Below are positions 31,613-43,448 of a stretch of 64,000 nucleotides of DNA, in pieces. Position numbers and translations under genes: made by a program. The notes beneath the pieces were generated by a model. The model did no database searches. It was not told the origin of the DNA and saw nothing but the letters and a program-made list of their open reading frames with translations. The stretch's first letter is position 1, and each line of letters opens with the position of its first letter. Source of the DNA: an uncultured Alphaproteobacteria bacterium (GTDB taxonomy: Bacteria > Pseudomonadota > Alphaproteobacteria > Rhizobiales > Beijerinckiaceae); NCBI GenBank assembly GCA_963782255.1, contig CAWAIS010000002.1:998557-1062556 (forward strand), written 5' to 3'.

Positions 31613-32862
31613 GCGCTCGCTACTCCGCTTTCACGCTTCTGCGCGAGGGGCTCGGCGGCCATAGAGGCTGGCCGCAGGCCTGGCGCAAGGCGAAGGCGAA
31701 GCCGGCCTACGATTTTGTAGTGGTTGGCGGCGGCGGCCATGGTCTCGCGACCGCTTATTATCTCGCGAAGAACCATGGTCGCACTCGGGTTTGCGTCCTT
31801 GAAAAGGGATGGCTCGGCGGGGGCAACACCGGGCGCAACACGACGATCGTGCGCTCCAACTATTTCTATCCCGAATCCGTCGCCCTCTACGACCTCGCGC
31901 TGAAACTCTACGAGGGTCTTTCGCGCGATCTCAATTTCAACGTGATGCTGAGCCAGCGCGGCATTCTCAACATTTCCCACACGCCGGCGCAGCTCGAAAT
32001 CGCGGCGCGTCTGACCAACGCCATGCAGCTCAACGGGGTCGACGCGGAGTTCTGGGGTCCCGATCATATCCGCAAGCGCCTGCCCATGATGTCTCAGTCG
32101 CTTGACTCGCGCTATCTGCCGAACGGCGGCGTGTGGCAGCGGCGCGGCGGCACGGCGCGGCATGACGCGGTCGCGTGGGGCTATGCCCGCGCCGCCGATG
32201 CGCTCGGCGTCGACATCATCGAGAATTGCGAAGTCGCCGGCTTTGTCATGCAGAACGGGGCGTGTGTCGGCGTCGAGACGACGCAAGGCGAAATCCGCGC
32301 CGAAAGCGTCGGCGTCGCCGTCGCCGGCCATTCCTCTCAGTTGATGGCGAAGGCCGGTGTCAGGCTGCCGATCCATTCCTACGCCCTGCAAGCGATGGTC
32401 AGCGAGCCGGTCAAGCCGTGCCTCGACATTGTCCTCCTGCAACTGGGAACCGGCGTCTATGCGAGCCAGTCCGACAAGGGCGAGATCGTGTTCGGCGGCG
32501 GGCTCGACCGCATTCCCTCCTACGGCCAGCGCGGCAACCCGCCGGTGCAGGAAATCGTCGTCTCCGGCCTCCTCGAGATGTTCCCCGCGTTCGGTCAGCT
32601 CAAGCTGATGCGGCAATGGGGCGGCATCGTCGACGTCGTCCCGGACTCGTCGCCCATCATCGGACCCGCGCCGGTTAAGGGCATATTCCTCAACTGCGGC
32701 TGGGGAACCGGCGGCTTCAAGGCGATCCCCGCGGGAGGGATGCTGCTCGCGCATCTGATGGCGACCGGTTCGCATCATCCGGTCAGCCGCCCGTTCGGCC
32801 TCGACCGCTTCGCCGCGGGCCGCCTCATCGACGAGGCCGCCGGCTCAGGCATCGCGCATTAG
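31609..32862 (+). CDS. soxB: Sarcosine oxidase subunit beta (heterotetrameric type)
   Basis: ATG at 31609. MSARYSAFTLLREGLGGHRGWPQAWRKAKAKPAYDFVVVGGGGHGLATAYYLAKNHG is the typical SoxB N-terminus. No soxD, soxA or soxG follows. Confidence 0.88.
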   Translation: MSARYSAFTLLREGLGGHRGWPQAWRKAKAKPAYDFVVVGGGGHGLATAYYLAKNHGRTRVCVLEKGWLGGGNTGRNTTIVRSNYFYPESVALYDLALKLYEGLSRDLNFNVMLSQRGILNISHTPAQLEIAARLTNAMQLNGVDAEFWGPDHIRKRLPMMSQSLDSRYLPNGGVWQRRGGTARHDAVAWGYARAADALGVDIIENCEVAGFVMQNGACVGVETTQGEIRAESVGVAVAGHSSQLMAKAGVRLPIHSYALQAMVSEPVKPCLDIVLLQLGTGVYASQSDKGEIVFGGGLDRIPSYGQRGNPPVQEIVVSGLLEMFPAFGQLKLMRQWGGIVDVVPDSSPIIGPAPVKGIFLNCGWGTGGFKAIPAGGMLLAHLMATGSHHPVSRPFGLDRFAAGRLIDEAAGSGIAH

Positions 32863-32916
32863 AAGGCGGGGGTTGCCTCGGGAGCGTCGCAGGCAGGGAA
32901 TTGCGGCTTTTTCTTG

Positions 32917-33000
32917 TCCTTGGATTTGCTTGGTTTCTGTAGGAAACAAGCCGGAAACGGCCCGAAACCGGCCTTGGATTTCCTTGGATTTCCTTGGATT
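32917..33000. repeat. Tandem and dispersed decamer repeat KCCTTGGATT
   Basis: Three perfect tandem copies lie at 32971-33000 (gccttggatt tccttggatt tccttggatt). Degenerate copies tccttggattt and gcttggttt lie at 32917-32936. CCGGAAAC/CCGAAAC motifs sit in between. Confidence 0.85.
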
Positions 33001-33486
33001 CTCTCGTCCGAAACGAGCCTTTTCAACGGGTTATGGGGAAATTTCGTGAAAAAAAATTTCTGGTCCCCGGCCGACCCGTCAGCGTCCTCGGCGCCACAAT
33101 GTCGCCCGAAAAGTTAATCGGCCATGCCTTCATCCAATTCCCTCACCCACGACGTTCTCGAAAAGCGAAGCAGTAGCAGAAATTTTCTAAAATGTAAAAC
33201 CCATGACCGAATTGGCGCCCGCCAGCCCGCGCGCTGTCCTTCAATGACCAGCCATAAGCTCTGAGGGCTGGGCTTTGTGTCGAGCGAGTCGGGCCCAAAA
33301 AATATTTCGCGAGGAACATCGTCGTTAAGTGATAAGGCGCTGGCCATGTCCGCCAACCCAATAATTCAAGCTGACATTGTATAACATCCCTCGCTTCCTT
33401 GGCCAGCGCGACCGCTTCGACCGGAATTGCTGATCACTGGACCATAGTAGCGTAGCTTTTGTTAATCCGAAAGGAAATGCTCAAAA

Positions 33487-34502
33487 ATTGGTATCCCCTT
33501 CACTGCCCCTGAGGGACGTGGTACGCCTGTCTGGTGGACACCACTCGACACCCGGTCGCTGGACTTGATTACCCGCGCACGTTTCAGGCGATGGACGAAC
33601 GCTTCCGTGACGACGCGGCCTGCCGCGAGTACATCCGTCGTTTGCGCTGGCCTCAGGGATTCACCTGCCCCCATTGCGGAGAGGCGGGGGAGCCATGGGT
33701 GATGGCAGGGGGATGGCTGCGGTGTCGGGCCTGCCGCAAACAGACATCGCTGACCGCCGGGACGATCTTCGAGGGTGCCCGTAAGCCGTTGCGGATGTGG
33801 TTTCTGGCGATGTGGTTCGTCACCAGCCAGAAGAATGGGGTCAGTGCGCTCGGCCTCCAGAGGGAATTGGGGCTTGGCAGCTACGAAACTGCCTGGACCT
33901 GGCTGCACAAACTGCGCCGCGCCATGGTCCGGCCGGGCCGGGACCTGCTGTCGGGTGCGATCGAGGTTGATGAAACCTATGTTGGTGGCCCGGAACAGGG
34001 TACGCGAGGCCGAGAAACCGAGAGCAAGGCCATCGTCGCCATAGCAGTCGAGAAGAACGGCCGGGGGCTTGGCCGCATCCGCCTTCAGCAGATCGGAGAT
34101 GTCTCGACAGACAGCCTGCTTCCCTTCGTCCAAGGCGCTGTGAAGCGCGGGGCGATGGTTCACACCGACGGCTGGAGGGGTTACCAGCATCAGGTCACGG
34201 TCCTCAGCGGCGGCTCCGACCCGGCGCACGAAGTCATGCCGCGCGTCCACCTCGTCGCCTCGCTGCTCAAGCGATGGCTGATCGGTACTCACCAAGGTGT
34301 CGTCCAGCATCAACATCTCGACTACTACCTCGACGAATTCACCTTCCGCTTCAATCGCCGCAGATCAAAGGCCCGCGGGCTGCTCTTTCATCGCCTCGCC
34401 CAACAAGCCCTCGCCGTTGGACCCGCGCCCTACAACGCCATCGTCAAGCCACCGGGTTCCAGCGACTTCCCCGGACACGGGGCAATGAAGGGGATACCCA
34501 AT
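33487..34502 (+). mobile_element. IS1595-family (ISXO2-like) insertion sequence, apparently intact
   Basis: Terminal inverted repeats ATTGGTATCCCCTTCACTGCCCC (33487-33509) and ATTGGGTATCCCCTTCATTGCCCC (reverse complement of 34479-34502). The element is flanked by identical TGCTCAAAA at 33478-33486 and 34503-34511. Confidence 0.8.
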
Positions 34503-34532
34503 TGCTCAAAATTCGCTCCCTGGCTAATTTGA
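33534..34532 (+). CDS. IS1595-family transposase (N-terminal zinc ribbon + ISXO2-like DDE domain)
   Basis: GTG start. CPHCG...CRACRKQTSLTAGTIFEGARKPLRMWFLAMWFV...IEVDETYVGG...VHTDGWRGY. The reading frame runs through the right IR into the flank before the stop. Confidence 0.85.
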   Translation: MDTTRHPVAGLDYPRTFQAMDERFRDDAACREYIRRLRWPQGFTCPHCGEAGEPWVMAGGWLRCRACRKQTSLTAGTIFEGARKPLRMWFLAMWFVTSQKNGVSALGLQRELGLGSYETAWTWLHKLRRAMVRPGRDLLSGAIEVDETYVGGPEQGTRGRETESKAIVAIAVEKNGRGLGRIRLQQIGDVSTDSLLPFVQGAVKRGAMVHTDGWRGYQHQVTVLSGGSDPAHEVMPRVHLVASLLKRWLIGTHQGVVQHQHLDYYLDEFTFRFNRRRSKARGLLFHRLAQQALAVGPAPYNAIVKPPGSSDFPGHGAMKGIPNCSKFAPWLI

Positions 34533-35589: not shown

Positions 35590-35704
35590 CCTTGCGACTG
35601 GGCGACGCCCCTGGCGGCGCGGCGCCAGTCCCGCCGCCCCGCAGCAGCGCTTCGCAGCCGAATCAAATCGCGCCGCTAGACTACATGTTCGCCTGAGATA
35701 GGGC

Positions 35705-35784
35705 GACCCGTCTCACAGTATGCAGGCTTGTCGAGGGTTGCGCCGGGCTTTCCGGCGCCGAGCCTCATGCATAGGAGACGGGTC
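35705..35784 (+). promoter_or_regulatory. Structured leader of the IS110-family transposase gene (RBS-sequestering long hairpin)
   Basis: A perfect 10-nt inverted repeat GACCCGTCTC (35705-35714) / GAGACGGGTC (35775-35784) encloses an inner hairpin GCGCCGG-gcttt-CCGGCGC (35740-35758). The 3' arm covers the GGAG (35774-35777) that serves the TTG start at 35785. Confidence 0.5.
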
Positions 35785-36894
35785 TTGGACGAATTTATCA
35801 CATACGTGGGCCTTGACGTGCACAAGGATACGATCGCGGTGGCGCTTGCGGAGGCGGGCGCACACAAGGACGTGCGCGAGTATGGCAAGATCGCGAACAC
35901 AGCGACGGCCTTGAACGCTCTGGCGGCGAAGCTGTCGCGCGCTGGAAGCGAGCTACGGTTCTGTTATGAGGCCGGCCCTTGCGGCTATGGCATTCAACGG
36001 CAGTTGACCCTGGCTGGGCATGGTTGCGTTGTCGTTGCTCCGTCGTTGATCCCACGCAAGCCGGGAGATCGGATCAAGACCGACCGGCGGGATGCGATCA
36101 ACCTGGCCAAGCTGCATCGCGCCGGTGAACTGACCGCTGTGTGGATTCCTGATCAGGCTCATGAGGCGATCCGCGATCTTGTGCGCGCGCGTCTTGCGGC
36201 CGTGCGCAGTCTGCGCCAGGCCCGTCAGCAGCTCTCTGGCTTTCTCCTGCGTCATGGCCGTCACTACAATCGGCCGGCGTGGACGTTGATGCATCGTCGC
36301 TGGATGGCCGGACTGAGATTCGAGCAAGCGGCGCATCACATCGTGCTGGAAGACTGCATCGCCGCCGTCGAGGCGGCGACGGCGCGGCGAGATCGTCTGG
36401 AAGCGCATATCGAGGCAGCGCTGCCGGATTGGTCGCTGGCCCCGGTGGTGCGCGCCCTGCAAGCGCTGCGCGGGATGGCTCTGGTCGCGGCGGCGACGGT
36501 GATCGCCGAACTCGGCGACATCACCCGCTTCGCCAATCCCCGTCAACTCATGGCGTATCTCGGTCTGGTTCCGTCCGAGCGCTCCAGCGGCGCCACACGA
36601 CGCCAAGGCGGCATCACGAAAGCCGGGAATGGCGCGGCCCGGCGAATGCTGATCGAGGCGGCCTGGAGTTATCGGTTCCCGGCGCGCATCAGCCGGGAGC
36701 AGCTGTTGCGCCAGGAGGGTCTGGCAAAGCCGATCCGCGACACCGCGTGGAAGGCCCAAGAAAGGCTGTGTCGGCGCTATCGCAAGCTTGCCCGGGCAGG
36801 AAAATCACCCACTGTGGTCACGACCGCGATCGCTCGAGAACTGGCGGGCTTTGCCTGGGCGATCGCCAAGCACGTTCAGATCGCCGGCGCTTGA
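35785..36894 (+). CDS. IS110-family transposase (DEDD N-terminal domain + Transposase_20)
   Basis: The preferred start is TTG at 35785 (MDEFITYVGLDVHKDTIAV, 6 nt after GGAGA); an in-frame ATG at 35767 is also possible. YEAGPCGYG, DRRDA, LVPSERSSG and GNGAARRMLIEAAW are family motifs. Confidence 0.85.
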   Translation: MDEFITYVGLDVHKDTIAVALAEAGAHKDVREYGKIANTATALNALAAKLSRAGSELRFCYEAGPCGYGIQRQLTLAGHGCVVVAPSLIPRKPGDRIKTDRRDAINLAKLHRAGELTAVWIPDQAHEAIRDLVRARLAAVRSLRQARQQLSGFLLRHGRHYNRPAWTLMHRRWMAGLRFEQAAHHIVLEDCIAAVEAATARRDRLEAHIEAALPDWSLAPVVRALQALRGMALVAAATVIAELGDITRFANPRQLMAYLGLVPSERSSGATRRQGGITKAGNGAARRMLIEAAWSYRFPARISREQLLRQEGLAKPIRDTAWKAQERLCRRYRKLARAGKSPTVVTTAIARELAGFAWAIAKHVQIAGA

Positions 36895-37435
36895 TGCGCT
36901 GAGATCGACAGCGGACCTCACGAAAAGGAGGTCATCGCCGACAACGCATCTATCCAAAGCTGAGCAAGGCTGGAGGCACGGTCACGGCCAGGAGAACCCT
37001 CGCGTCCACTATCAGCCGGATATTTTCCGACGCTGGCCGCTAGACAGAGGAAGCTCCGCGACGCATCACCGGTCCGGCGGTATCCAACCCGCGCATCAGA
37101 GCATGATCAACCGTCGTTTTGATGATCGTGCCTCCTGCCCTGCTCAGTGGCGGCCATTCTGAACCGCTCGCGCGCGAGCTACGCTTTCTTGTGCCTGCTA
37201 CTTGAAACGGCGAACATGAGAGTGGTCAAAGTCCCACACTTGACGCCCGAACCGGAATGTCGCGAAAGGGCGGAGAGCAGACGTTCGAAGTCGGGCCAAT
37301 CCTAGCGCTCATCATTTCATGCAATGCCGAATTGTCGAGGAGCAGGTTCCAGAGAACCAGACCGAGATTACTGCCGAACGCGATACCGCGTGGCGATCTG
37401 TCAGCTTTCGGGCCTCGACAGCCCATGGTTATTGT

Positions 37436-38476
37436 ATGGCACCTGAACGGGCGGCCGTGCTAGCGAACGCAATGGAAACCTCTGATCCGCAAAACGAGAA
37501 TGTTAAGCCACTCGAAAACCTTTTATCGCGAGAGAACGTAGTAAAATGTCCACACTTCATGGCGGTGCTGGGTTATATTGGCAAAACATACGGCGTTCCG
37601 AAATTCGGCTATGCTCGGCGAGCGTTGCTCTACCATTATACAGACGCCGCGGGCCTATTAGGGATCATTTCGAGCAACCGCCTTTGGGCTACGGATGCGA
37701 GCTTCCTGAATGACCCTTCTGAAGGTCTGCTTTTTCCGGAGCGCATAATCGATTTCATGCGGCAGAAGCTCTGTGGCTTAAGGTCCCCAGAAGAGAAAAT
37801 AATCATTCAAGTTGAGGAGGGATTGAGGAAGCAATCGAAGCCTGTTAACGCTTTTACTATAAGCTTCTGCGACGACGGCGATCTCCTGAGTCAGTGGCGT
37901 GGCTACGGCTCAATTGGATCTGGCTACGCCATTGGATTTGACCAAAAAATCCTTGCTCTCGTTCAACTTGGGCATCTAGTCGAAGTACGGTACGATTTCG
38001 AGGGCATTCAAGAGATGGCGCTCGACCTTCTGTCAATTTTCGTCGAGGCGGCCCCTAACTGGTGTCCCACTATATTAGAACGATTTTGCGAGGAGGCGGC
38101 TCTAGCGATCCGCTACTTAAGCTTGGGGTTCAAGAGCGCCGGCTACAGGGAAGAACGTGAAACCCAAATCCTGACGCATACGAACGACAAGGCCGGGCAC
38201 CCCTTCGAGGTTATGGCACCATTGAAGTTCCGTGTGCGCGGCGCAGACATTGTGCCCTATGTCAGCCTAGCGCCAAACGTTCTGCCCGGAAGCGACGGGT
38301 CTCCGCCTCGACTACCGAAGAGTGACGAGCATCCGCCTCGGCTGCCAATTCGACAGATTGTGACCGGTCCCGGCGTCGACTATCTCAGAAACAAGTCTTC
38401 TTTAGAGCGCCTGCTCGCCGCACACGGCTATGACGGCGTGGAAATCGTCCAGTCCTTGATTCCCTTGAGATCATAA
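37436..38476 (+). CDS. DUF2971-like protein (uncharacterised family), full length
   Basis: LLYHYTDAAGLLGIISSNRLWATDASFLNDPSEG...FTISFCDDGDLLSQWRGYGS...GYAIGF...FKSAGYREERETQIL...IVQSLIPLRS match DUF2971 hallmark motifs as I recall them. The start is ATG 37436 or ATG 37472. The region is AT-richer than its surroundings. Confidence 0.75.
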   Translation: MAPERAAVLANAMETSDPQNENVKPLENLLSRENVVKCPHFMAVLGYIGKTYGVPKFGYARRALLYHYTDAAGLLGIISSNRLWATDASFLNDPSEGLLFPERIIDFMRQKLCGLRSPEEKIIIQVEEGLRKQSKPVNAFTISFCDDGDLLSQWRGYGSIGSGYAIGFDQKILALVQLGHLVEVRYDFEGIQEMALDLLSIFVEAAPNWCPTILERFCEEAALAIRYLSLGFKSAGYREERETQILTHTNDKAGHPFEVMAPLKFRVRGADIVPYVSLAPNVLPGSDGSPPRLPKSDEHPPRLPIRQIVTGPGVDYLRNKSSLERLLAAHGYDGVEIVQSLIPLRS

Positions 38477-38544
38477 TCTCAATTGTTGTGAAGCAAATTC
38501 GCCAATTGCCAGACTATTCCAGGGCCAAATTGAACGTCCCCTTC

Positions 38545-38559
38545 GGGTCGATTCCGGCC
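38545..38559. repeat. Left copy of a direct repeat GGGTCGATTCCGGCC
   Basis: A 15-nt exact match to 39621-39635, with similar flanks (ttc/ttt before, GTC after). Confidence 0.8.
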
Positions 38560-38719
38560 AGTCGGAAGCGGGCTGAAGATTTAGCCGTGCTTCCAGTCCG
38601 GCCGATGCTGTCACCGCACGGTCGGGAAGGTCTCTAATGGGCGGAGAGCGGACCTTCAGTGCTCGGTGCTTGGTGCGGTGCTAGACTTTGTATTTGGAAC
38701 ATCGGGTAGGGAATCCGGC

Positions 38720-39522
38720 ATGCACATTGCAATCGACGATACATATGGACCGATTGGCCCGACAAAGTCGAAGTATGTTTCAGGTGCGCGCCGGACCCAT
38801 ATTGCCGTCGTTTTTTCAGACGATGGGGTTGAAGATGTCCGCACTCAAATTCGAAATTGTCTTGAGCTTACGTCGGAATACTTGCCCCTGCCGCCGAGGG
38901 AATTCCATTTTGCTGATATATATAACCGCGTTGGACCGTGGAAGTTACTAAATGGTCATGTAAACCTCGGTATAATTGAGGCTTTTTGTCATATTTACTC
39001 GCTGTATAGGTGGCCCGTAATCATACAGACTATTGATGACCGCACTCTTAGGGACCATGGTATTAAGGGTTACAAAGGCGTTGTAGATGGACTTGATTTA
39101 TCCAACAGACATGACCTGTCTTTGATGTGGTTATGTATAAAAATAAAGCTCAAGTTTAATAAGGAGCCAACACCGTTGGCCCTCATAGTTGACGAGGGCC
39201 AAAAAAGAGCGGAGCGGAATTTGGGAAGCAAATATTCCACAATTGGAAGGGCCCATACCAAGGACGTTACATGTCATCTTCGCAGGAACCTCTCCTTTAG
39301 ATCGCGGACCTACTCGCTTTCTGCATTAATCGAAATACCCATTTAGCAATGAAAGAGAATAGAACTGAGACCGACACCGAATTTATGCGTATCGTGGCAA
39401 GCATGAGGATATGCAGCGATGATATCTCTCCGATGCTTCTTCCCATAGGCTTCACTCCAGCAGATTTCGACAAATTCCATGCTACGGATCGCTTTCTTAA
39501 GGGCCTTAAAGACGACCGTTAG
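38720..39522 (+). pseudogene. DUF3800-like gene disrupted by a frameshift and an in-frame TAG
   Basis: ATG at 38720 (MHIAIDDTYGP...REFHFADIYN...LALIVDEGQK). The family C-terminus (SSSQEPLL, stop, then IADLLAFCINR...) lies in the -1 frame from about 39193. A TAG at 39298-39300 sits where the family has Gln. The stop is at 39520-39522. This is the lowest-GC stretch in the window by eye. Confidence 0.7.
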
Positions 39523-39620
39523 TTAGGAGCACCGATGGTGCTCAAAGAAGCGCCAGATCGCTCCTGACCTCGACTCTGTCGTTGACGAGGCGGTCAACTG
39601 CCGGAACCAACATCTGCTTT

Positions 39621-39635
39621 GGGTCGATTCCGGCC
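39621..39635. repeat. Right copy of the direct repeat GGGTCGATTCCGGCC
   Basis: Exact 15-nt match to 38545-38559, followed by the hairpin CCGGCC-gtccgtt-GGCCGG. Confidence 0.8.
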
Positions 39636-39681
39636 GTCCGTTGGCCGGTCCGGCAGGATATCAAGTGTTGGATTCTGACCG

Positions 39682-40956
39682 CTAGCCGCTTCGCGAGCCG
39701 CGCCGCATCGGCCCGGACTTCTCCGCCAGCGGTGCGGAGCTTGCGACCGCCATAGCGCTCTCTTCGCCAGCCGCAGGTCGGCCCTTCCGGCCGGGCTCGT
39801 CAGTCGTCTCTCGCTCCGCATAGAGGCGCGCCAACTCGCGGCCGAGACGTTCGATCGCTTCGCGCAACGCGGAGTCGCCGCCATTTTCGCTTATGGACGA
39901 GCCGATCGCCGCGACCTTGGCGCGAAGAGCGTCGTTTTCCCGTTTGAGCGCCTCGCGATCGGCGCGCGCCGCGTGAAGCTCCCCGTCCGTCGCGGCGGGG
40001 GCGGCGTCCAAGCTCTGGCCGTCAAGCGCAGCCGCCTTCTCGGAGGCGCGAGCGTCGGCGCCGGCGGCGGTCGGGCGCGCCTCGAATTCCGCGGCCTTTG
40101 CCTGCGCATCCTTCAACGCCGCGTCTTTGTCGGCGAGTGCCGCGAGCAGGCGGCTGTTCTCGAGCAGGGTCCCTTCCCGCACCCGATCGCTCGCCGCGAT
40201 CTGCGACTCGAGCTCGATCAGCCTTCTTCGGCTCTCGTCGTGATCGGCGGCGCCGCGCGACAGGCGCTCCGCGAGACGATCGTTCCTGGCGACCGCCTCG
40301 CGAAGGCGCACCTCGAGCGCGCGGACCTTCGCTCGCTCGTCTTCCAGCGACCGATTGAGCTGGGCGCGCGCCGATTCCGCCTTTTCGGCCCTGTGCGACA
40401 GGTCTTCGATCAGGCCTTCCAAATTTTCCTCACGCGCCGCCAAAATGGCGGCTCTCGCCCTGTCCCTGCTCGCCTGCGCCTCGAGCTCCAGCCGGCGGGC
40501 CGTCGCGGCGGCTTCGATGACGGCGGCTCGATCCCGTTGGCTGAATGCGTCGTGGAGAGCGATCTGGCTCGCGGCCAGCGCGGCCTCCATATCGCGGCGC
40601 TCGGAGGCCAGCCTGTCGATTTCCGAGGCTTGATCGAGGATCGTCCGGCCCTGCCCGGAGGCGCCGGACTCGAGTTCGATCAGCTTGACCGCGTATTTGC
40701 CGAGTCCGGCGCGCAGTTCGACAGACGCCCTCTCCGCGCGAGCGGCGCGGCGTTCAAGCTGATGACGTTCGACCGCGAATTGAGCCCTGAGCGCATCGCG
40801 CTCCGCCGCGGCCTGCCTTTCGCCGACCGGCGCCTGGAGCGAGGCGCGCGCTCGCGACAGGCGCATCGCGCGGCGGGAAATTACAGGTATCCCGAGAACC
40901 GCTGCCAGCGAAGCTGCGAGGAACCCAGCCGCGAAGAAGAACGCCTGCTCGATCAA
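39682..40956 (-). CDS. Membrane-anchored coiled-coil protein (function unknown)
   Basis: 424 aa with an N-terminal transmembrane helix (MIEQAFFFAAGFLAASLAAVLGIPVI), then long Ala/Arg/Glu/Leu heptad-like sequence. Confidence 0.65.
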   Translation of the reverse strand: MIEQAFFFAAGFLAASLAAVLGIPVISRRAMRLSRARASLQAPVGERQAAAERDALRAQFAVERHQLERRAARAERASVELRAGLGKYAVKLIELESGASGQGRTILDQASEIDRLASERRDMEAALAASQIALHDAFSQRDRAAVIEAAATARRLELEAQASRDRARAAILAAREENLEGLIEDLSHRAEKAESARAQLNRSLEDERAKVRALEVRLREAVARNDRLAERLSRGAADHDESRRRLIELESQIAASDRVREGTLLENSRLLAALADKDAALKDAQAKAAEFEARPTAAGADARASEKAAALDGQSLDAAPAATDGELHAARADREALKRENDALRAKVAAIGSSISENGGDSALREAIERLGRELARLYAERETTDEPGRKGRPAAGEESAMAVASSAPLAEKSGPMRRGSRSG

Positions 40957-41054: not shown

Positions 41055-41624
41055 TCAGAAAGGATTCCAGGTTGGCTCACCGGTAAACTTGAGGTAGCTG
41101 ACGTTGACTCCGAGCCGCCACCCGAGACCCGTTCGGATCGGCACGACGACGACGTCTTCCGCATTGAGGGCGGTGAAGCCGAAACCGCCGACGAAATAAG
41201 CCGACCCGTCGACGCCGCCGAAGCGGCGATAGATCGCGCCGACCGCCGGCAGGTTGTAGACCAGCATCATCGTCCGGTCGCCGTCCCCGCCGGCGTCGAA
41301 GCCGATGGACGGGCCCTGCCAATAGACGGGCCGTTGGCCCACATTTCTCGTGTACATTTTGCCCTCGCCATAGCGAAGGCCGCCGATGAAGGCGCCCGAG
41401 GCTTCCTGGCCAAGGACGTATGCGTTGGGCAATCCCCATCGCCGGCCGGCTTCCTGCACCACTTCCGCCAATCCGCGCGACACGCTGCCAAAGAAGCGGT
41501 GGCCGTTGTCGACAATTTCTTCCGGCGAAAACTTTTCGGGCGTGTCCGCGCGGGCGCGCGAGGCTATCGGAAGCGCGGCCAGGGCCAGGGCCGACAAGAG
41601 TTCTCGACGCGTTACGATCGTCAT
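41055..41624 (-). CDS. DUF1134-domain periplasmic protein (EipA-like)
   Basis: ATG at 41624 with a Tat-like signal TRRELLSALALAALPIASRARA. GQEASGAFIGGLRYGEGKMY...GPSIGFDAGGDG is typical of DUF1134. Confidence 0.78.
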   Translation of the reverse strand: MTIVTRRELLSALALAALPIASRARADTPEKFSPEEIVDNGHRFFGSVSRGLAEVVQEAGRRWGLPNAYVLGQEASGAFIGGLRYGEGKMYTRNVGQRPVYWQGPSIGFDAGGDGDRTMMLVYNLPAVGAIYRRFGGVDGSAYFVGGFGFTALNAEDVVVVPIRTGLGWRLGVNVSYLKFTGEPTWNPF

Positions 41625-41755
41625 CAAGGCGCCCCTCTGGCTCAACTGCTGAGCGATGATCCCGTCCGAAGTCGAATCGGCGTGACCCCATGGACACGGA
41701 AACAACTTCGCGCTGCTTTACGACGCGATATTGCGACGCGCGCGTTAATGCACTG

Positions 41756-42601
41756 TTAACGTAAAGCGAATTTGCAGGCCGCCGTCGGATCGCCCCAGGC
41801 GACGAACGCGCCGTTGCGCAACGCCTTGTCGGTTTTTCCATAAGCGAGGGCGGCCCCGGACGCGTCGAGGACGATCCCGCCGGCCGCGCGCAACACCGCA
41901 TCGCCTGCCGCGGTGTCCCATTCCATCGTCGGCCCGCAGCGGGGATAGACATCCGCCGCCCCCTCCGCGATGAGGCAGAACTTGAGCGACGAGCCCCTCG
42001 AGCGTCGTTCGGCGATTGGCAGGCGCTCGAGAAACGCCTCGGTCTCCGCATCGCAGTGCGAGCGGCTCGCGACGGCGATGAGATCGCTCGGCGCGGGCCG
42101 CGTGCATATCCTGCGGGCGTTTCCCCCGGGCGTGAGAGCGCCGAGCGGCGCGTCGCAAACGAAGGCTTGGCGCGCGCCGTACCACAGCGTCGCGATCGCG
42201 GGAGCGTAGACGGCCCCGGCGACCGGCCGACCGCCTTCGACGAGCGCGACATTGATCGTGAATTCGCCGTTATGCGCAAGAAATTCGCGTGTCCCGTCGA
42301 GCGGATCGATCAGGAAAAAACGGTCCGCAATCGAGACCGCTTTGCCCGCGCAAACGGCCTCTTCGGCGACGATTGGAATCGTCGGAGCCGCGCGCTCGAG
42401 AAGTGCGGAAATGACGGCTTCGGCTCGCTCGTCGGCGAGCGTCACCGGACTTCCGTCGCTCTTGGTCCAGGCGCGCCCGTCTTTCTCATAGATGTCCATC
42501 ACGGCTGGTCCGGCGGCAAGAGCCGCCTCAGCGAGAAAAACCGCGACTTCGCCGGGCGCGGCGCGGTCAAAAGGAAACAAGCCATTGTCCAGTCGGCCCA
42601 T
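41756..42601 (-). CDS. cysQ: 3'(2'),5'-bisphosphate nucleotidase (inositol monophosphatase family)
   Basis: FLIDPLDGTREF and WDTAAGDAVL motifs. Confidence 0.85.
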   Translation of the reverse strand: MGRLDNGLFPFDRAAPGEVAVFLAEAALAAGPAVMDIYEKDGRAWTKSDGSPVTLADERAEAVISALLERAAPTIPIVAEEAVCAGKAVSIADRFFLIDPLDGTREFLAHNGEFTINVALVEGGRPVAGAVYAPAIATLWYGARQAFVCDAPLGALTPGGNARRICTRPAPSDLIAVASRSHCDAETEAFLERLPIAERRSRGSSLKFCLIAEGAADVYPRCGPTMEWDTAAGDAVLRAAGGIVLDASGAALAYGKTDKALRNGAFVAWGDPTAACKFALR

Positions 42602-42686
42602 CAGCTTCTCTTTTCTCTCGCGCCACGCCTCGCGGGCCGACCGGCTTCATGCAAGGTGTCGTCGCCGATGAGCGAATCGGATAGAC

Positions 42687-43448
42687 ATGGGGCTTGGCTT
42701 TCGATTCGTCGAGTCGGCCGCGCGGGCCGGATCAGGCACTGATCATAGGACTTGCCGTTTGACAACCGTCGCCCTCGCTCCATTAGACCTCGCAGCGCTC
42801 CTCTGTTCGCGCGTGTGCCATGACGTAATCGGTCCCGTCGGGGCGATCATCAACGGCCTCGAAGTGCTTGACGGCGAAGAGGACGACGAGATGCGTTCGA
42901 TCGCCATGGACCTCATCAAGAAGAGCGCGGCCTCCGCCTCCACCCGGCTGCAGTTCTGCCGGCTGGCTTTTGGCGCGGCCGGTTCGCTGACTGCGGCGAT
43001 CGACACCGGAGACGCCGAGAACGCCGCCCGCGCGCTCATCGCCAACGATCGCACCAGCCTGCGCTGGAACGCATCGCGCCAGCTGGCCCCGAAGAACATG
43101 GTGAAGCTCATGCTCAACATGTGTCTTATCGCCGCCGGCTGCGTGCCCCGGGGAGGCGCCGTCACAGTCGAATTTGAAGGCGAAGCCGATCGGACGATCC
43201 GTGTGGAGGCGAACGGGCCAAACGCCAAATTGCCGCATTCCGCCGCGGCGATTCTTACCCAGGACGCTGCGGACATGGTCGATGCGCATTCGATCCAGTC
43301 TTACTACGCCGCGCTCCTGGCCCGGGAATGCGGCATGACGATCGAGGCCCTGAGCTCGCTGGAAGCCGTCATATTGAAAGCCGCGCCGGCAGGGGTAAAT
43401 TTGGACGGCGCGCCCGCGAGCGCAGCGGCAAAACCGGCCGTCGTCTAG
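42687..43448 (+). CDS. chpT: Histidine phosphotransferase ChpT
   Basis: LAALLCSRVCHDVIGPVGAIINGLEVL (phospho-His region) and a degenerate HATPase-like C-terminal domain. The start is uncertain: ATG 42687 or TTG 42759. Confidence 0.8.
   Translation: MGLGFRFVESAARAGSGTDHRTCRLTTVALAPLDLAALLCSRVCHDVIGPVGAIINGLEVLDGEEDDEMRSIAMDLIKKSAASASTRLQFCRLAFGAAGSLTAAIDTGDAENAARALIANDRTSLRWNASRQLAPKNMVKLMLNMCLIAAGCVPRGGAVTVEFEGEADRTIRVEANGPNAKLPHSAAAILTQDAADMVDAHSIQSYYAALLARECGMTIEALSSLEAVILKAAPAGVNLDGAPASAAAKPAVV

What the first reader, a model, noticed from the sequence alone, without database searches (positions are those of the whole stretch)
37436..39522. AT-richer two-gene cassette: intact DUF2971-like gene followed by a DUF3800-like gene, candidate uncharacterised accessory (defence-type?) module
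The two co-oriented genes are 243 nt apart at the distal end of an IS-rich island, directly downstream of an IS110-family element. Their base composition is visibly lower in G+C than the rest of the window. Both products match, by hallmark motifs, families with no assigned function. The DUF2971 motifs are YHYT..., NDPSE, SQWRGYG, GYAIGF and S.IP.R. The DUF3800 motifs are IAIDDTYG, EFHFADIYN and SxEPLL[Q]IADLLA. No known toxin, nuclease, methylase or regulator accompanies them. Foreign composition, a mobile-element neighbourhood and paired orphan families are typical of phage-defence or abortive-infection cassettes. That role is pure inference here. I cannot tell from the sequence alone whether the two genes work together.
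Basis: partly seen in the sequence, partly recalled or inferred. Interest (0 to 1): 0.7.

Follow-up and report, generated by a model that had tools for sequence, protein, structure and literature searches.

The report
Two unrelated solo accessory genes, one broken
The low-G+C "cassette" is two unrelated horizontally acquired single genes that happen to sit side by side, a DarT-like ADP-ribosyltransferase of a family with one proven anti-phage member and a disabled RNase H-like gene, so it is an ordinary accessory islet and not a new two-gene system.

Summary
The sequence facts hold. Gene A (37472-38476, +) is an open 334-codon ORF. Gene B (38720-39522, +) lies 243 nt downstream. G+C is 0.53 and 0.45 against 0.64 for the window. 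An IS110 element lies just upstream.

Both products score just under Pfam's cut-offs. Their homologues place them firmly in DUF2971 and DUF3800.

Neither family is function-less any more. DUF2971 is a predicted DarT-like ADP-ribosyltransferase and includes the single-gene lactococcal anti-phage system Aristaios. DUF3800 has an RNase H-like fold.

B is disabled as read. It has lost one A from an A-run, and a TAG replaces the invariant Q of the QxxD motif.

The pair is not conserved. Of 113 loci with an A relative and 65 with a B relative, only one holds both, 3.3 kb apart. Neither gene has any recurring neighbour. Each is a solo gene of lower G+C than its flanks in most hosts, and some copies lie in defence islands or prophages.

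The only conserved position where A departs from its family (R232Q) is probably a base-calling error. All 7 differences from a 99.97%-identical sister assembly fall on GANTC motifs.

Verdict: new members of known kinds, low interest.

The parts
37472..38476 (+). Gene A: 334-aa DUF2971-family protein, predicted DarT-like ADP-ribosyltransferase. Open ORF.
   Evidence: ORF and start. 217 homologues, many annotated DUF2971. 71 of 71 relatives hit PF11185. AlphaFold model pLDDT 92. Best PDB matches are DarT 7yk3 and 7omv. phrog_1762 E 2e-15.
38165..38167 (+). Codon 232 of gene A, CAA (Gln). 219 of 220 relatives have Arg here (E-E-x-E-x-R). Probably a base-calling error at a GANTC site.
   Evidence: conservation. 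(the sister assembly and two near-identical proteins have CGA/Arg). (7 of 7 assembly differences lie on GANTC).
38477..38719 (+). 243-nt spacer between A and B. Not conserved with relatives of either gene and not unusually structured.
   Evidence: No blastn match outside the coding sequences. Fold z-score -0.77. No Rfam match.
38720..39522 (+). Gene B: disabled copy of a solo ~265-aa DUF3800 (RNase H-like) gene.
   Evidence: Three-frame translation. The repaired product aligns end to end with 263-268-aa homologues at 50-67% identity. 58 of 59 relatives hit PF12686. The model of homologue P0121 best matches RNase HII 1eke, E 3.5e-4.
39199..39204 (+). A6 run where the frame of B shifts. Relatives read G-K-K-K-S here, and one more A restores Q-K-K-S-G-A-E-F-G.
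   Evidence: Shared by the sister assembly. A homopolymer miscall cannot be excluded.
39298..39300 (+). In-frame TAG in place of the invariant Gln (CAG/CAA) of the QxxD motif of DUF3800.
   Evidence: Not at a GANTC site and shared by both assemblies.
35672..37222 (+). IS110-family element upstream of A. Ends are approximate; the transposase gene is at 35728-36894.
   Evidence: Pfam DEDD_Tnp_IS110 and Transposase_20. Extent taken from alignment with plasmid copies.
33485..34503 (+). IS1595-family element with 25-nt terminal inverted repeats, near the left end of the islet.
   Evidence: Pfam DDE_Tnp_IS1595 and Zn_ribbon_IS1595. Inverted repeat I3.
38542..38559 (+). Left copy of an 18-nt direct repeat (TTYGGGTCGATTCCGGCC) that brackets gene B. 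The right copy is at 39618-39635.
   Evidence: Absent from all 183 related loci. Meaning unknown.
39618..39635 (+). Right copy of the 18-nt direct repeat that brackets gene B.

Best explanation
The region is a small islet of foreign DNA that holds two unrelated stand-alone accessory genes. They ended up adjacent by separate acquisition, not as a functional pair.

Gene A encodes a DUF2971-family protein with an ADP-ribosyltransferase core of the DarT/AbiGi (H-Y-E) type. The proposed catalytic residues are H55 in YHYT, Y145 in SQWRGYG and E228/E230 in EERE. A clade-specific ~50-residue helical N-terminus and two helical inserts are added to the core.

By analogy with the single-gene DUF2971 system Aristaios and with DarT, A most likely stays inactive until a phage cue appears. 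It would then use NAD+ to ADP-ribosylate nucleic acid, or possibly a protein, and halt phage transcription or replication by abortive infection.

Gene B is the remnant of a solo RNase H-like DUF3800 nuclease gene. Intact relatives sit in defence islands and as a prophage moron. Here it is switched off by a stop codon at its invariant Gln and by a one-base loss in an A-run.

Shown: the family membership, the folds, the lesions as read, the lack of co-occurrence and the composition. Inferred: the enzymatic activity, the target and the defence role.
For: Family and fold of A:
- (homologues and PF11185).
- (model pLDDT 92).
- (the top three PDB matches are DarT, probability 0.80-0.94).
- (single members also touch AbiGi and Tox-ART-HYD1).
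- PMC12522546 (DUF2971 is an H-Y-E-clade ART similar to DarT and AbiGi).
- PMC11381338 and PMC13064643 (Aristaios is a 316-aa DUF2971 protein with an abortive-infection phenotype that affects phage transcription).
- 26 of 27 columns conserved at 90% or more over 220 relatives are kept. The one exception is probably an artefact.

Family and fold of B; PMC7736814; PMC10910872.

Lesions in B.

Not a pair:
- 94 A-loci have at least 1.5 kb downstream, and 33 B-loci have at least 1.5 kb upstream. Only L112 holds both genes, 3.3 kb apart, with an A match of E 1e-7.
- No recurring neighbour for either gene.
- Similarity to L082 (80% DNA identity over A) ends at the stop codon.
- A and B differ in G+C by 8 points.

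Solo mobile character:
- Gene G+C is below flank G+C in 94% of 98 A-loci and 86% of 28 B-loci, with a median of -7 points.
- Contexts with methylase/ArdC/CcdAB/IS110, Qat/Gabija-like genes, SIR2/McrBC/integrase, RT/helicase/CHAT, and a Mu-like prophage.
- 176 plasmids carry DUF2971 relatives, 96 of them conjugative.
Against: - The structural match to DarT is weak (E 5e-3, TM 0.3-0.45). The mapping of the catalytic residues is by motif, not by superposition.
- PADLOC hits are weak (E 2e-4), and direct similarity to Aristaios was not tested.
- No promoter was found for A.
- The closest relatives of A (66-84% identity) sit on contigs too short to show what follows them. A pairing limited to this narrow clade is therefore not strictly excluded.
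- An 18-nt direct repeat brackets B, and a 43-nt imperfect repeat lies upstream of both genes. These are unexplained.
- The assembly shows systematic errors, so the frameshift in B may not be real.
- B keeps 70 of 71 conserved columns, which is few missense changes for a gene with two disabling lesions.
Confidence: 0.7

Rival explanations
1. A and B form a lineage-specific two-gene module. B's nuclease would act as antitoxin, sensor or second effector for A's ADP-ribosyltransferase, as DarG does for DarT.
For: The genes are co-oriented and 243 nt apart, in one low-G+C stretch. A 43-nt imperfect repeat lies upstream of both. The nearest A relatives sit on contigs too short to show their downstream gene.
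Against: No co-occurrence in 177 distinct loci apart from one distant case. The nearest B relatives with upstream sequence lack A, and A relatives at 35-60% identity lack B. B is disabled while A stays open in two assemblies. The two genes differ in G+C by 8 points. B is RNase H-like, not a macrodomain.
Confidence: 0.07
2. B is intact in the organism and its lesions are assembly artefacts. The islet would then hold two live solo genes.
For: The assembly carries systematic, methylation-linked base-call errors: 7 of 7 differences from the sister assembly lie at GANTC. The frameshift sits in a homopolymer. B keeps 70 of 71 conserved columns.
Against: The TAG is a substitution outside any GANTC motif and is identical in two assemblies from different samples. 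No near-identical intact B protein appeared in the 5.8-billion-protein search.
Confidence: 0.15
3. A is not a defence gene. It would be an ADP-ribosyltransferase with another role, such as a secreted effector, a plasmid or mobile-element addiction function, or a DNA-damage or stress regulator.
For: PMC12522546 predicts about 18% of DUF2971 proteins to be effectors and reports other operon contexts. DUF2971 genes are common on conjugative plasmids. One 55%-identical relative lies among housekeeping genes (EipA, CysQ, ChpT) with no mobile genes nearby.
Against: The only tested family member is anti-phage (PMC11381338). Several relatives lie in defence islands. The solo low-G+C pattern is typical of defence genes, though also of other mobile genes.
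Confidence: 0.2

Closest known systems
Aristaios (single-gene DUF2971 abortive-infection system of Lactococcus plasmids; PMC11381338, PMC13064643)
   Same: A single gene of about 320 aa with a DUF2971 domain covering most of the protein. Predicted ADP-ribosyltransferase fold. No partner gene. Carried on mobile DNA.
   Different: Distant host (an alphaproteobacterium against Lactococcus). Direct sequence similarity was not measured here. A's clade has its own ~50-residue N-terminal helical module. No phenotype is known for A.
DarT of the DarTG toxin-antitoxin / anti-phage system (PDB 7yk3, 7omv)
   Same: Best structural matches of the A model. H-Y-E-type ART core. The literature places DUF2971 next to DarT and AbiGi (PMC12522546).
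   Different: No DarG macrodomain antitoxin next to A or its relatives. Two large helical inserts. Low TM-scores (0.3-0.45). The substrate is unknown.
PADLOC candidate PDC-S31
   Same: 41 of 71 relatives of A match PDC-S31 models, with a best E-value of 1e-9.
   Different: The window protein itself matches only at E 2e-4. PDC-S31 is an untested candidate, and no paper in the library mentions it.
DUF3800 proteins linked to defence systems: retron type VII partner, TPR-DUF3800 next to Cas12a2/Cas12a3, Csx32 of the Cas13 kinase system (PMC7736814, PMC10910872, PMC13594972, bioRxiv 10.64898/2026.08.25.746378)
   Same: The same Pfam family and RNase H-like fold. An N-terminal acidic motif and a C-terminal QxxD motif.
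   Different: The B clade is a bare ~265-aa protein with no TPR, no reverse transcriptase, no CRISPR-Cas and no recurring neighbour. The window copy is disabled.
DUF3800-I to -XI, drum and skipping-rope RNA motifs (PMC5737381)
   Same: These RNAs lie next to DUF3800 genes, so a partner RNA is a possibility for B-type genes.
   Different: No Rfam family reaches its threshold in the window or in 16 B-clade loci. The flanks of B-clade genes share no sequence.

Membership tests
DUF2971 (PF11185) | Match to the Pfam model at or above the gathering score (22 bits) | tested here: not met
   19.7 bits, E 0.002, just below the cut-off.
DUF2971 (PF11185) | Full-length homology to proteins that are members | tested here: met
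   phmmer E 1e-80 to 1e-16 against proteins annotated DUF2971. 71 of 71 aligned relatives hit PF11185 at E<=0.01, best 4e-12. 11,840 cluster representatives at E<=1e-3.
DUF2971 (PF11185) | Conserved motifs H-Y-T, N-D-x-x-E, S-Q-W-R-x-Y and E-E-x-E-x-R | tested here: met
   26 of 27 columns conserved at 90% or more are kept. The exception, R232Q, is probably a base-call error.
ADP-ribosyltransferase superfamily, H-Y-E clade (DarT-like) | ART fold with a catalytic Glu at the start of the fifth core strand | tested here: inconclusive
   Foldseek's top three PDB matches are DarT (E 5e-3 to 5e-2, probability 0.80-0.94, TM 0.28-0.45). E228/E230 lie just before strand 230-236 of the model. No superposition or residue mapping was available.
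DarTG toxin-antitoxin | Adjacent DarG macrodomain antitoxin | tested here: not met
   The neighbours are an IS110 element and an RNase H-like pseudogene. No recurring neighbour in 113 loci.
Aristaios | Stand-alone DUF2971 protein of about 316 aa | tested here: met
   334 aa. Solo in the window and in relatives.
Aristaios | Direct sequence relatedness to pUCCL641_199, and anti-phage activity | not tested
   The sequence was not on hand, and the first 10 organism names listed for the plasmid tblastn did not include Lactococcus. The phenotype needs experiment.
DUF3800 (PF12686) | Match to the Pfam model at or above the gathering score (21 bits) | tested here: not met
   The repaired window protein scores 16.6 bits and the ORF as read scores nothing. 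The closest homologue, P0121, scores 22.2 bits, and 58 of 59 relatives hit at E<=0.01.
DUF3800 (PF12686) | N-terminal acidic motif and C-terminal QxxD motif, with an RNase H-like fold | tested here: inconclusive
   IAIDDTYGP is present. QxxD reads *IAD, with TAG in place of Q. The fold was shown only for homologue P0121: RNase HII 1eke, E 3.5e-4.
DUF3800 (PF12686) | Intact coding sequence | tested here: not met
   One-base loss in the A-run 39199-39204 and TAG at 39298-39300, in two assemblies.
Retron type VII / Cas12a-associated TPR-DUF3800 / CASK Csx32 | Neighbouring reverse transcriptase plus ncRNA, or Cas12/Cas13 genes, or a fused TPR domain | tested here: not met
   Pfam scans of the neighbours show only transposases, a Cache protein and housekeeping genes. 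There is no TPR, and the B-clade length is about 265 aa.
DUF3800-associated RNA motifs (Rfam) | Covariance-model match next to the gene | tested here: not met
   None in the window at the gathering threshold. Within 37000-40000 at E<=10, only three chance-level hits to unrelated families. None in 16 B-clade loci.
Conserved two-gene defence system | The two families recur as neighbours in unrelated genomes | tested here: not met
   1 of 177 distinct loci holds both, 3.3 kb apart, with a weak A match.

The most novel reading that the evidence does not exclude
The small A clade comprises 22 clusters at 50% identity and is marked by its own N-terminal helical module. It could be an antitoxin-free, DNA- or RNA-modifying ADP-ribosyltransferase that defends by abortive infection. 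The bare ~265-aa DUF3800 clade could be a single-gene RNase H-like defence nuclease that moves as a naked gene. Their adjacency next to the EipA-CysQ-ChpT block would then mark a micro-hotspot where this lineage collects and discards such genes.
Probability: 0.15. Interest if true: 0.45.

Novelty: new member of a known kind. Interest (0 to 1): 0.2.

Why it matters
- It removes a false lead. The "paired orphan families" are not a system, so defence-discovery effort should treat DUF2971 and solo DUF3800 genes separately.
- It adds an alphaproteobacterial clade to the DUF2971 (Aristaios-type, DarT-like) family. It also documents that both families behave as single genes of foreign composition in most hosts.
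- It gives a practical warning. In this assembly, apparent SNPs and an apparent change at an invariant residue beside the predicted catalytic ExE motif trace to GANTC (CcrM-site) base-calling errors. Pseudogene and variant calls here need read-level confirmation.

Tried and rejected
1. Conserved pairing. I scanned genome, metagenome and viral collections for each family and searched every locus with HMMs of both. No pairing was found.

2. A conserved partner gene for either family. Neighbour clustering found only duplicates of the same contigs. The small ORF downstream of some B relatives is not conserved across the clade.

3. A partner RNA for B.
   - No Rfam family reached threshold in the window or in the B-clade loci.
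   - The flanks of B-clade genes share no sequence.
   - The A-B spacer is not unusually stable.

4. R232Q as a recent inactivating mutation of a toxic gene. I held this view until one search showed that all 7 inter-assembly differences lie on GANTC. It is now rejected as a probable artefact.

5. A tRNA-fragment origin for the GGGTCGATTCCGGCC repeat. There is no tRNA in the window and the motif is absent from all related loci. This remains unexplained.

6. Sequence-profile search of the PDB. It was uninformative for both families. The viral structure library was also uninformative.

7. Plasmid DNA search for the islet. No match.

8. Naming the source organism. The look-ups are masked. The gene content (EipA, CysQ, ChpT) and the GANTC pattern indicate an alphaproteobacterium.
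Full report
**What is there**

The window has 63.7% G+C. Between about 37.2 and 39.6 kb this falls to 51%.

Two co-oriented reading frames lie in that stretch. Gene A is open from 37319 to 38476. Gene B starts at ATG 38720, 243 nt after A's stop.

B changes frame at an A6 run (39199-39204). In the new frame it carries TAG at 39298-39300.

Upstream lies an IS110-family element. Its transposase gene is at 35728-36894, and comparison with plasmid copies gives an extent of about 35672 to 37140-37222. Further left are a ChaB-like ORF, a Cache-domain gene and an IS1595 element with 25-nt inverted repeats at 33485-34503.

To the right the genome returns to 68-74% G+C. The genes there are an uncharacterised 424-aa ORF, EipA, CysQ, ChpT and a response regulator, an alphaproteobacterial housekeeping block.

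**Family membership**

Against Pfam, A scores 19.7 bits on DUF2971 (cut-off 22). The repaired B scores 16.6 bits on DUF3800 (cut-off 21). Taken alone, these fail the curated thresholds.

The homologue searches settle the matter:
- A has 217 relatives, about 320 aa long, many annotated DUF2971.
- The repaired B has 247 relatives of 263-268 aa, at 50-67% identity over 99% of its length.
- All 71 aligned relatives of A hit PF11185, and 58 of 59 relatives of B hit PF12686.

An exhaustive search found 11,840 cluster representatives related to A. Only 22 of them are at E<=1e-30, and these share A's extra ~50-residue N-terminal segment. Both genes are therefore divergent members of large families.

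**What the families are**

Neither family is function-less any longer.

*DUF2971.* A 2025 survey classifies it as an ADP-ribosyltransferase of the H-Y-E clade, with sequence similarity to DarT, AbiGi and Tox-ART-HYD1 (PMC12522546). A 316-aa DUF2971 protein from a Lactococcus plasmid, named Aristaios, is a single-gene abortive-infection system that interferes with phage transcription (PMC11381338, PMC13064643).

Results here agree with that picture:
- The AlphaFold model of A is confident (pLDDT 92).
- Its three best PDB matches are DarT structures, although at weak scores (E 5e-3 to 5e-2, TM 0.28-0.45).
- Single relatives touch the AbiGi and Tox-ART-HYD1 models.
- Relatives match PADLOC's candidate PDC-S31.
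- A matches phrog_1762.

The invariant residues fit the three ART motifs: H55-Y56-T57, Q141-W142-x-x-Y145 and E227-E228-x-E230. That mapping is by motif, not by superposition.

*DUF3800.* It is described as RNase H-like. It accompanies type VII retrons, Cas12a2/a3 loci (fused to TPR) and a Cas13 kinase system, and eleven RNA motifs are found next to its genes (PMC7736814, PMC10910872, PMC13594972, bioRxiv 10.64898/2026.08.25.746378, PMC5737381). The model of the closest intact B homologue (P0121, pLDDT 92) best matches RNase HII 1eke (E 3.5e-4), followed by RNase H2 and retroviral integrases.

**Gene B is disabled as read**

Relatives read G-K-K-K-S-x-x-x-F-G at the A-run. One extra A in the window restores Q-K-K-S-G-A-E-F-G and an end-to-end alignment. 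The TAG replaces the invariant Gln of the QxxD motif. Both lesions are also present in a sister assembly.

**The two genes are not a system**

I fetched loci around relatives of each family from genome, metagenome and viral collections and searched every locus with HMMs of both families.
- 113 loci hold an A relative, and 94 of these have at least 1.5 kb downstream.
- 65 loci hold a B relative, and 33 of these have at least 1.5 kb upstream.
- Only one locus (L112) holds both. There they are 3.3 kb apart, and the A match is distant (E 1e-7).

Clustering of all neighbouring ORFs found no partner that recurs beyond duplicate contigs, for either family. DNA similarity to the closest relatives begins and ends with the coding sequence. 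L082, 80% identical over A, stops matching at the stop codon. A and B also differ from each other by 8 points of G+C.

One caveat remains. The three closest A relatives (66-84% identity) sit on contigs too short to show the next gene.

**Solo, mobile, defence-flavoured**

In 94% of 98 A-loci and 86% of 28 B-loci, the gene's G+C is below that of its flanks, with a median difference of 7 points. The foreign composition is therefore a property of each gene family, not of a shared island.

Examples of context for A relatives:
- In Dickeya, next to a DNA methylase with a GHKL-type ATPase, ArdC, CcdAB and IS110.
- On pAtGV3101, right after qatC/qatD and near Gabija-like genes, an integrase and VapBC.

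Examples of context for B relatives:
- Between the portal and terminase genes of a Mu-like prophage.
- In Rhizobium, between a SIR2-like gene, an integrase, McrBC and an HNH gene.
- On pAt1D1460, next to a reverse transcriptase, a helicase, an AAA ATPase and a CHAT protein.

In addition, 176 plasmids carry DUF2971 relatives, 96 of them conjugative. This supports a defence-type role for each gene separately, by association only.

**A trap that was found and removed**

A keeps 26 of the 27 columns that are at least 90% conserved over 220 relatives. The exception is residue 232, which is Gln where 219 of 220 relatives have Arg, two residues after the ExE motif.

A sister assembly (L184, ENA ERZ25039491) is 99.966% identical over 20,762 nt. 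One of its 7 differences restores Arg, by G at 38166. Two near-identical proteins also have Arg.

This looked like a fresh inactivating mutation. However, all 7 differences lie on the G or the C of a GANTC motif, always as GANTC to AANTC or GANTT. Four are on the window's side and three on the sister's. Such positions make up 0.6% of the stretch, so 7 of 7 by chance has P of about 3e-16.

GANTC is the CcrM methylation site of alphaproteobacteria (established knowledge). The pattern is what methylation-linked base-calling errors in long-read assemblies produce. Gln232 is therefore most likely an artefact, and A is probably fully intact.

The same reasoning weakens the frameshift in B, which sits in a homopolymer. 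The TAG is different: it is not at GANTC and is identical in both assemblies.

**Mechanism proposed**

*Gene A.* A is a stand-alone DarT-like ADP-ribosyltransferase that stays inactive until infection. It would then use NAD+ to modify nucleic acid, or possibly a protein, and stop phage gene expression at the cost of the cell, as reported for Aristaios. The clade-specific N-terminus and the helical inserts (residues 87-120 and 179-217 in the model) are candidates for the sensing or autoinhibitory part. All of this is inference.

*Gene B.* B was a Mg2+-dependent RNase H-like nuclease with the acidic residues D6/D7, E61, D106, D158 and D197. It is now dead.

**Novelty and score**

Both genes are new members of known kinds, and the pairing is fortuitous. 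Interest is low (0.2). The residual novel reading is an antitoxin-free ART clade plus a naked single-gene DUF3800 defence nuclease collected at a local hotspot. It has perhaps a 15% chance and would be of moderate interest.

Noticed in passing
window 33136, 33290, 35795, 38166, 42715, 44918, 48705 (against L184): All 7 differences between the window and a 99.966%-identical sister assembly lie on the G or C of GANTC motifs, always GANTC to AANTC or GANTT, on either side (P about 3e-16). This is the signature of CcrM-methylation-linked base-calling errors. Variant and pseudogene calls in this assembly need read-level checks.
   Followed up: yes
window 38542-38559 and 39618-39635; also 37244-37286 and 38615-38657: An exact 18-nt direct repeat (TTYGGGTCGATTCCGGCC) brackets gene B, with the copies 1076 nt apart. 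A 43-nt, 77%-identical repeat lies upstream of both A and B. Neither is found elsewhere in the window or in 183 related loci. Their meaning is unknown; they could be insertion scars.
   Followed up: partly
contig of P0011 (JGI 3300047160), compared with window 41055-43448: A 55%-identical relative of gene A lies directly after ChpT in an EipA-CysQ-ChpT block of another alphaproteobacterial contig. This is the same housekeeping block that flanks the window's islet, but on its other side. It could be a regional hotspot or a coincidence.
   Followed up: no
L182 8001-8792: A 55%-identical relative of gene B sits alone, on the opposite strand, between the portal and terminase genes of a Mu-like prophage. 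This is a moron-like position. Its G+C is 0.45 against 0.65 in the flanks.
   Followed up: partly
L185 7076-7900 (Agrobacterium fabrum pAtGV3101): A DUF2971 gene follows qatC/qatD by 26 nt, in a stretch that also holds Gabija-like endonuclease and helicase genes, a KAP NTPase, an integrase and VapBC. It may be an unrecognised add-on to that Qat locus.
   Followed up: no
window 32860-33480: A low-G+C (0.48-0.55) stretch without a convincing gene lies between an FAD oxidoreductase gene and the IS1595 element. It has clustered TCCTTGGATTT-type repeats at 32917-33002. It is probably the left edge of the foreign islet.
   Followed up: no
window 39682-40956 (-): A 424-aa Ala/Arg/Glu-rich ORF, probably coiled-coil with an N-terminal membrane helix, has no Pfam match. 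It lies between the islet and EipA and is called as a 394-aa gene in the sister assembly.
   Followed up: no
window 39523-39690 (+): The 168 nt downstream of gene B fold more stably than shuffled controls (z = -2.87, 3 of 200 shuffles as good). The fold includes a perfect CCGGCC/GGCCGG hairpin right after the direct repeat. There is no comparative support.
   Followed up: partly
window 39199-39204: The frameshift site reads CAA AAA AGA. A -1 slip of tRNA-Lys on the A-run would restore the family frame. The downstream TAG makes programmed frameshifting an unlikely rescue.
   Followed up: partly
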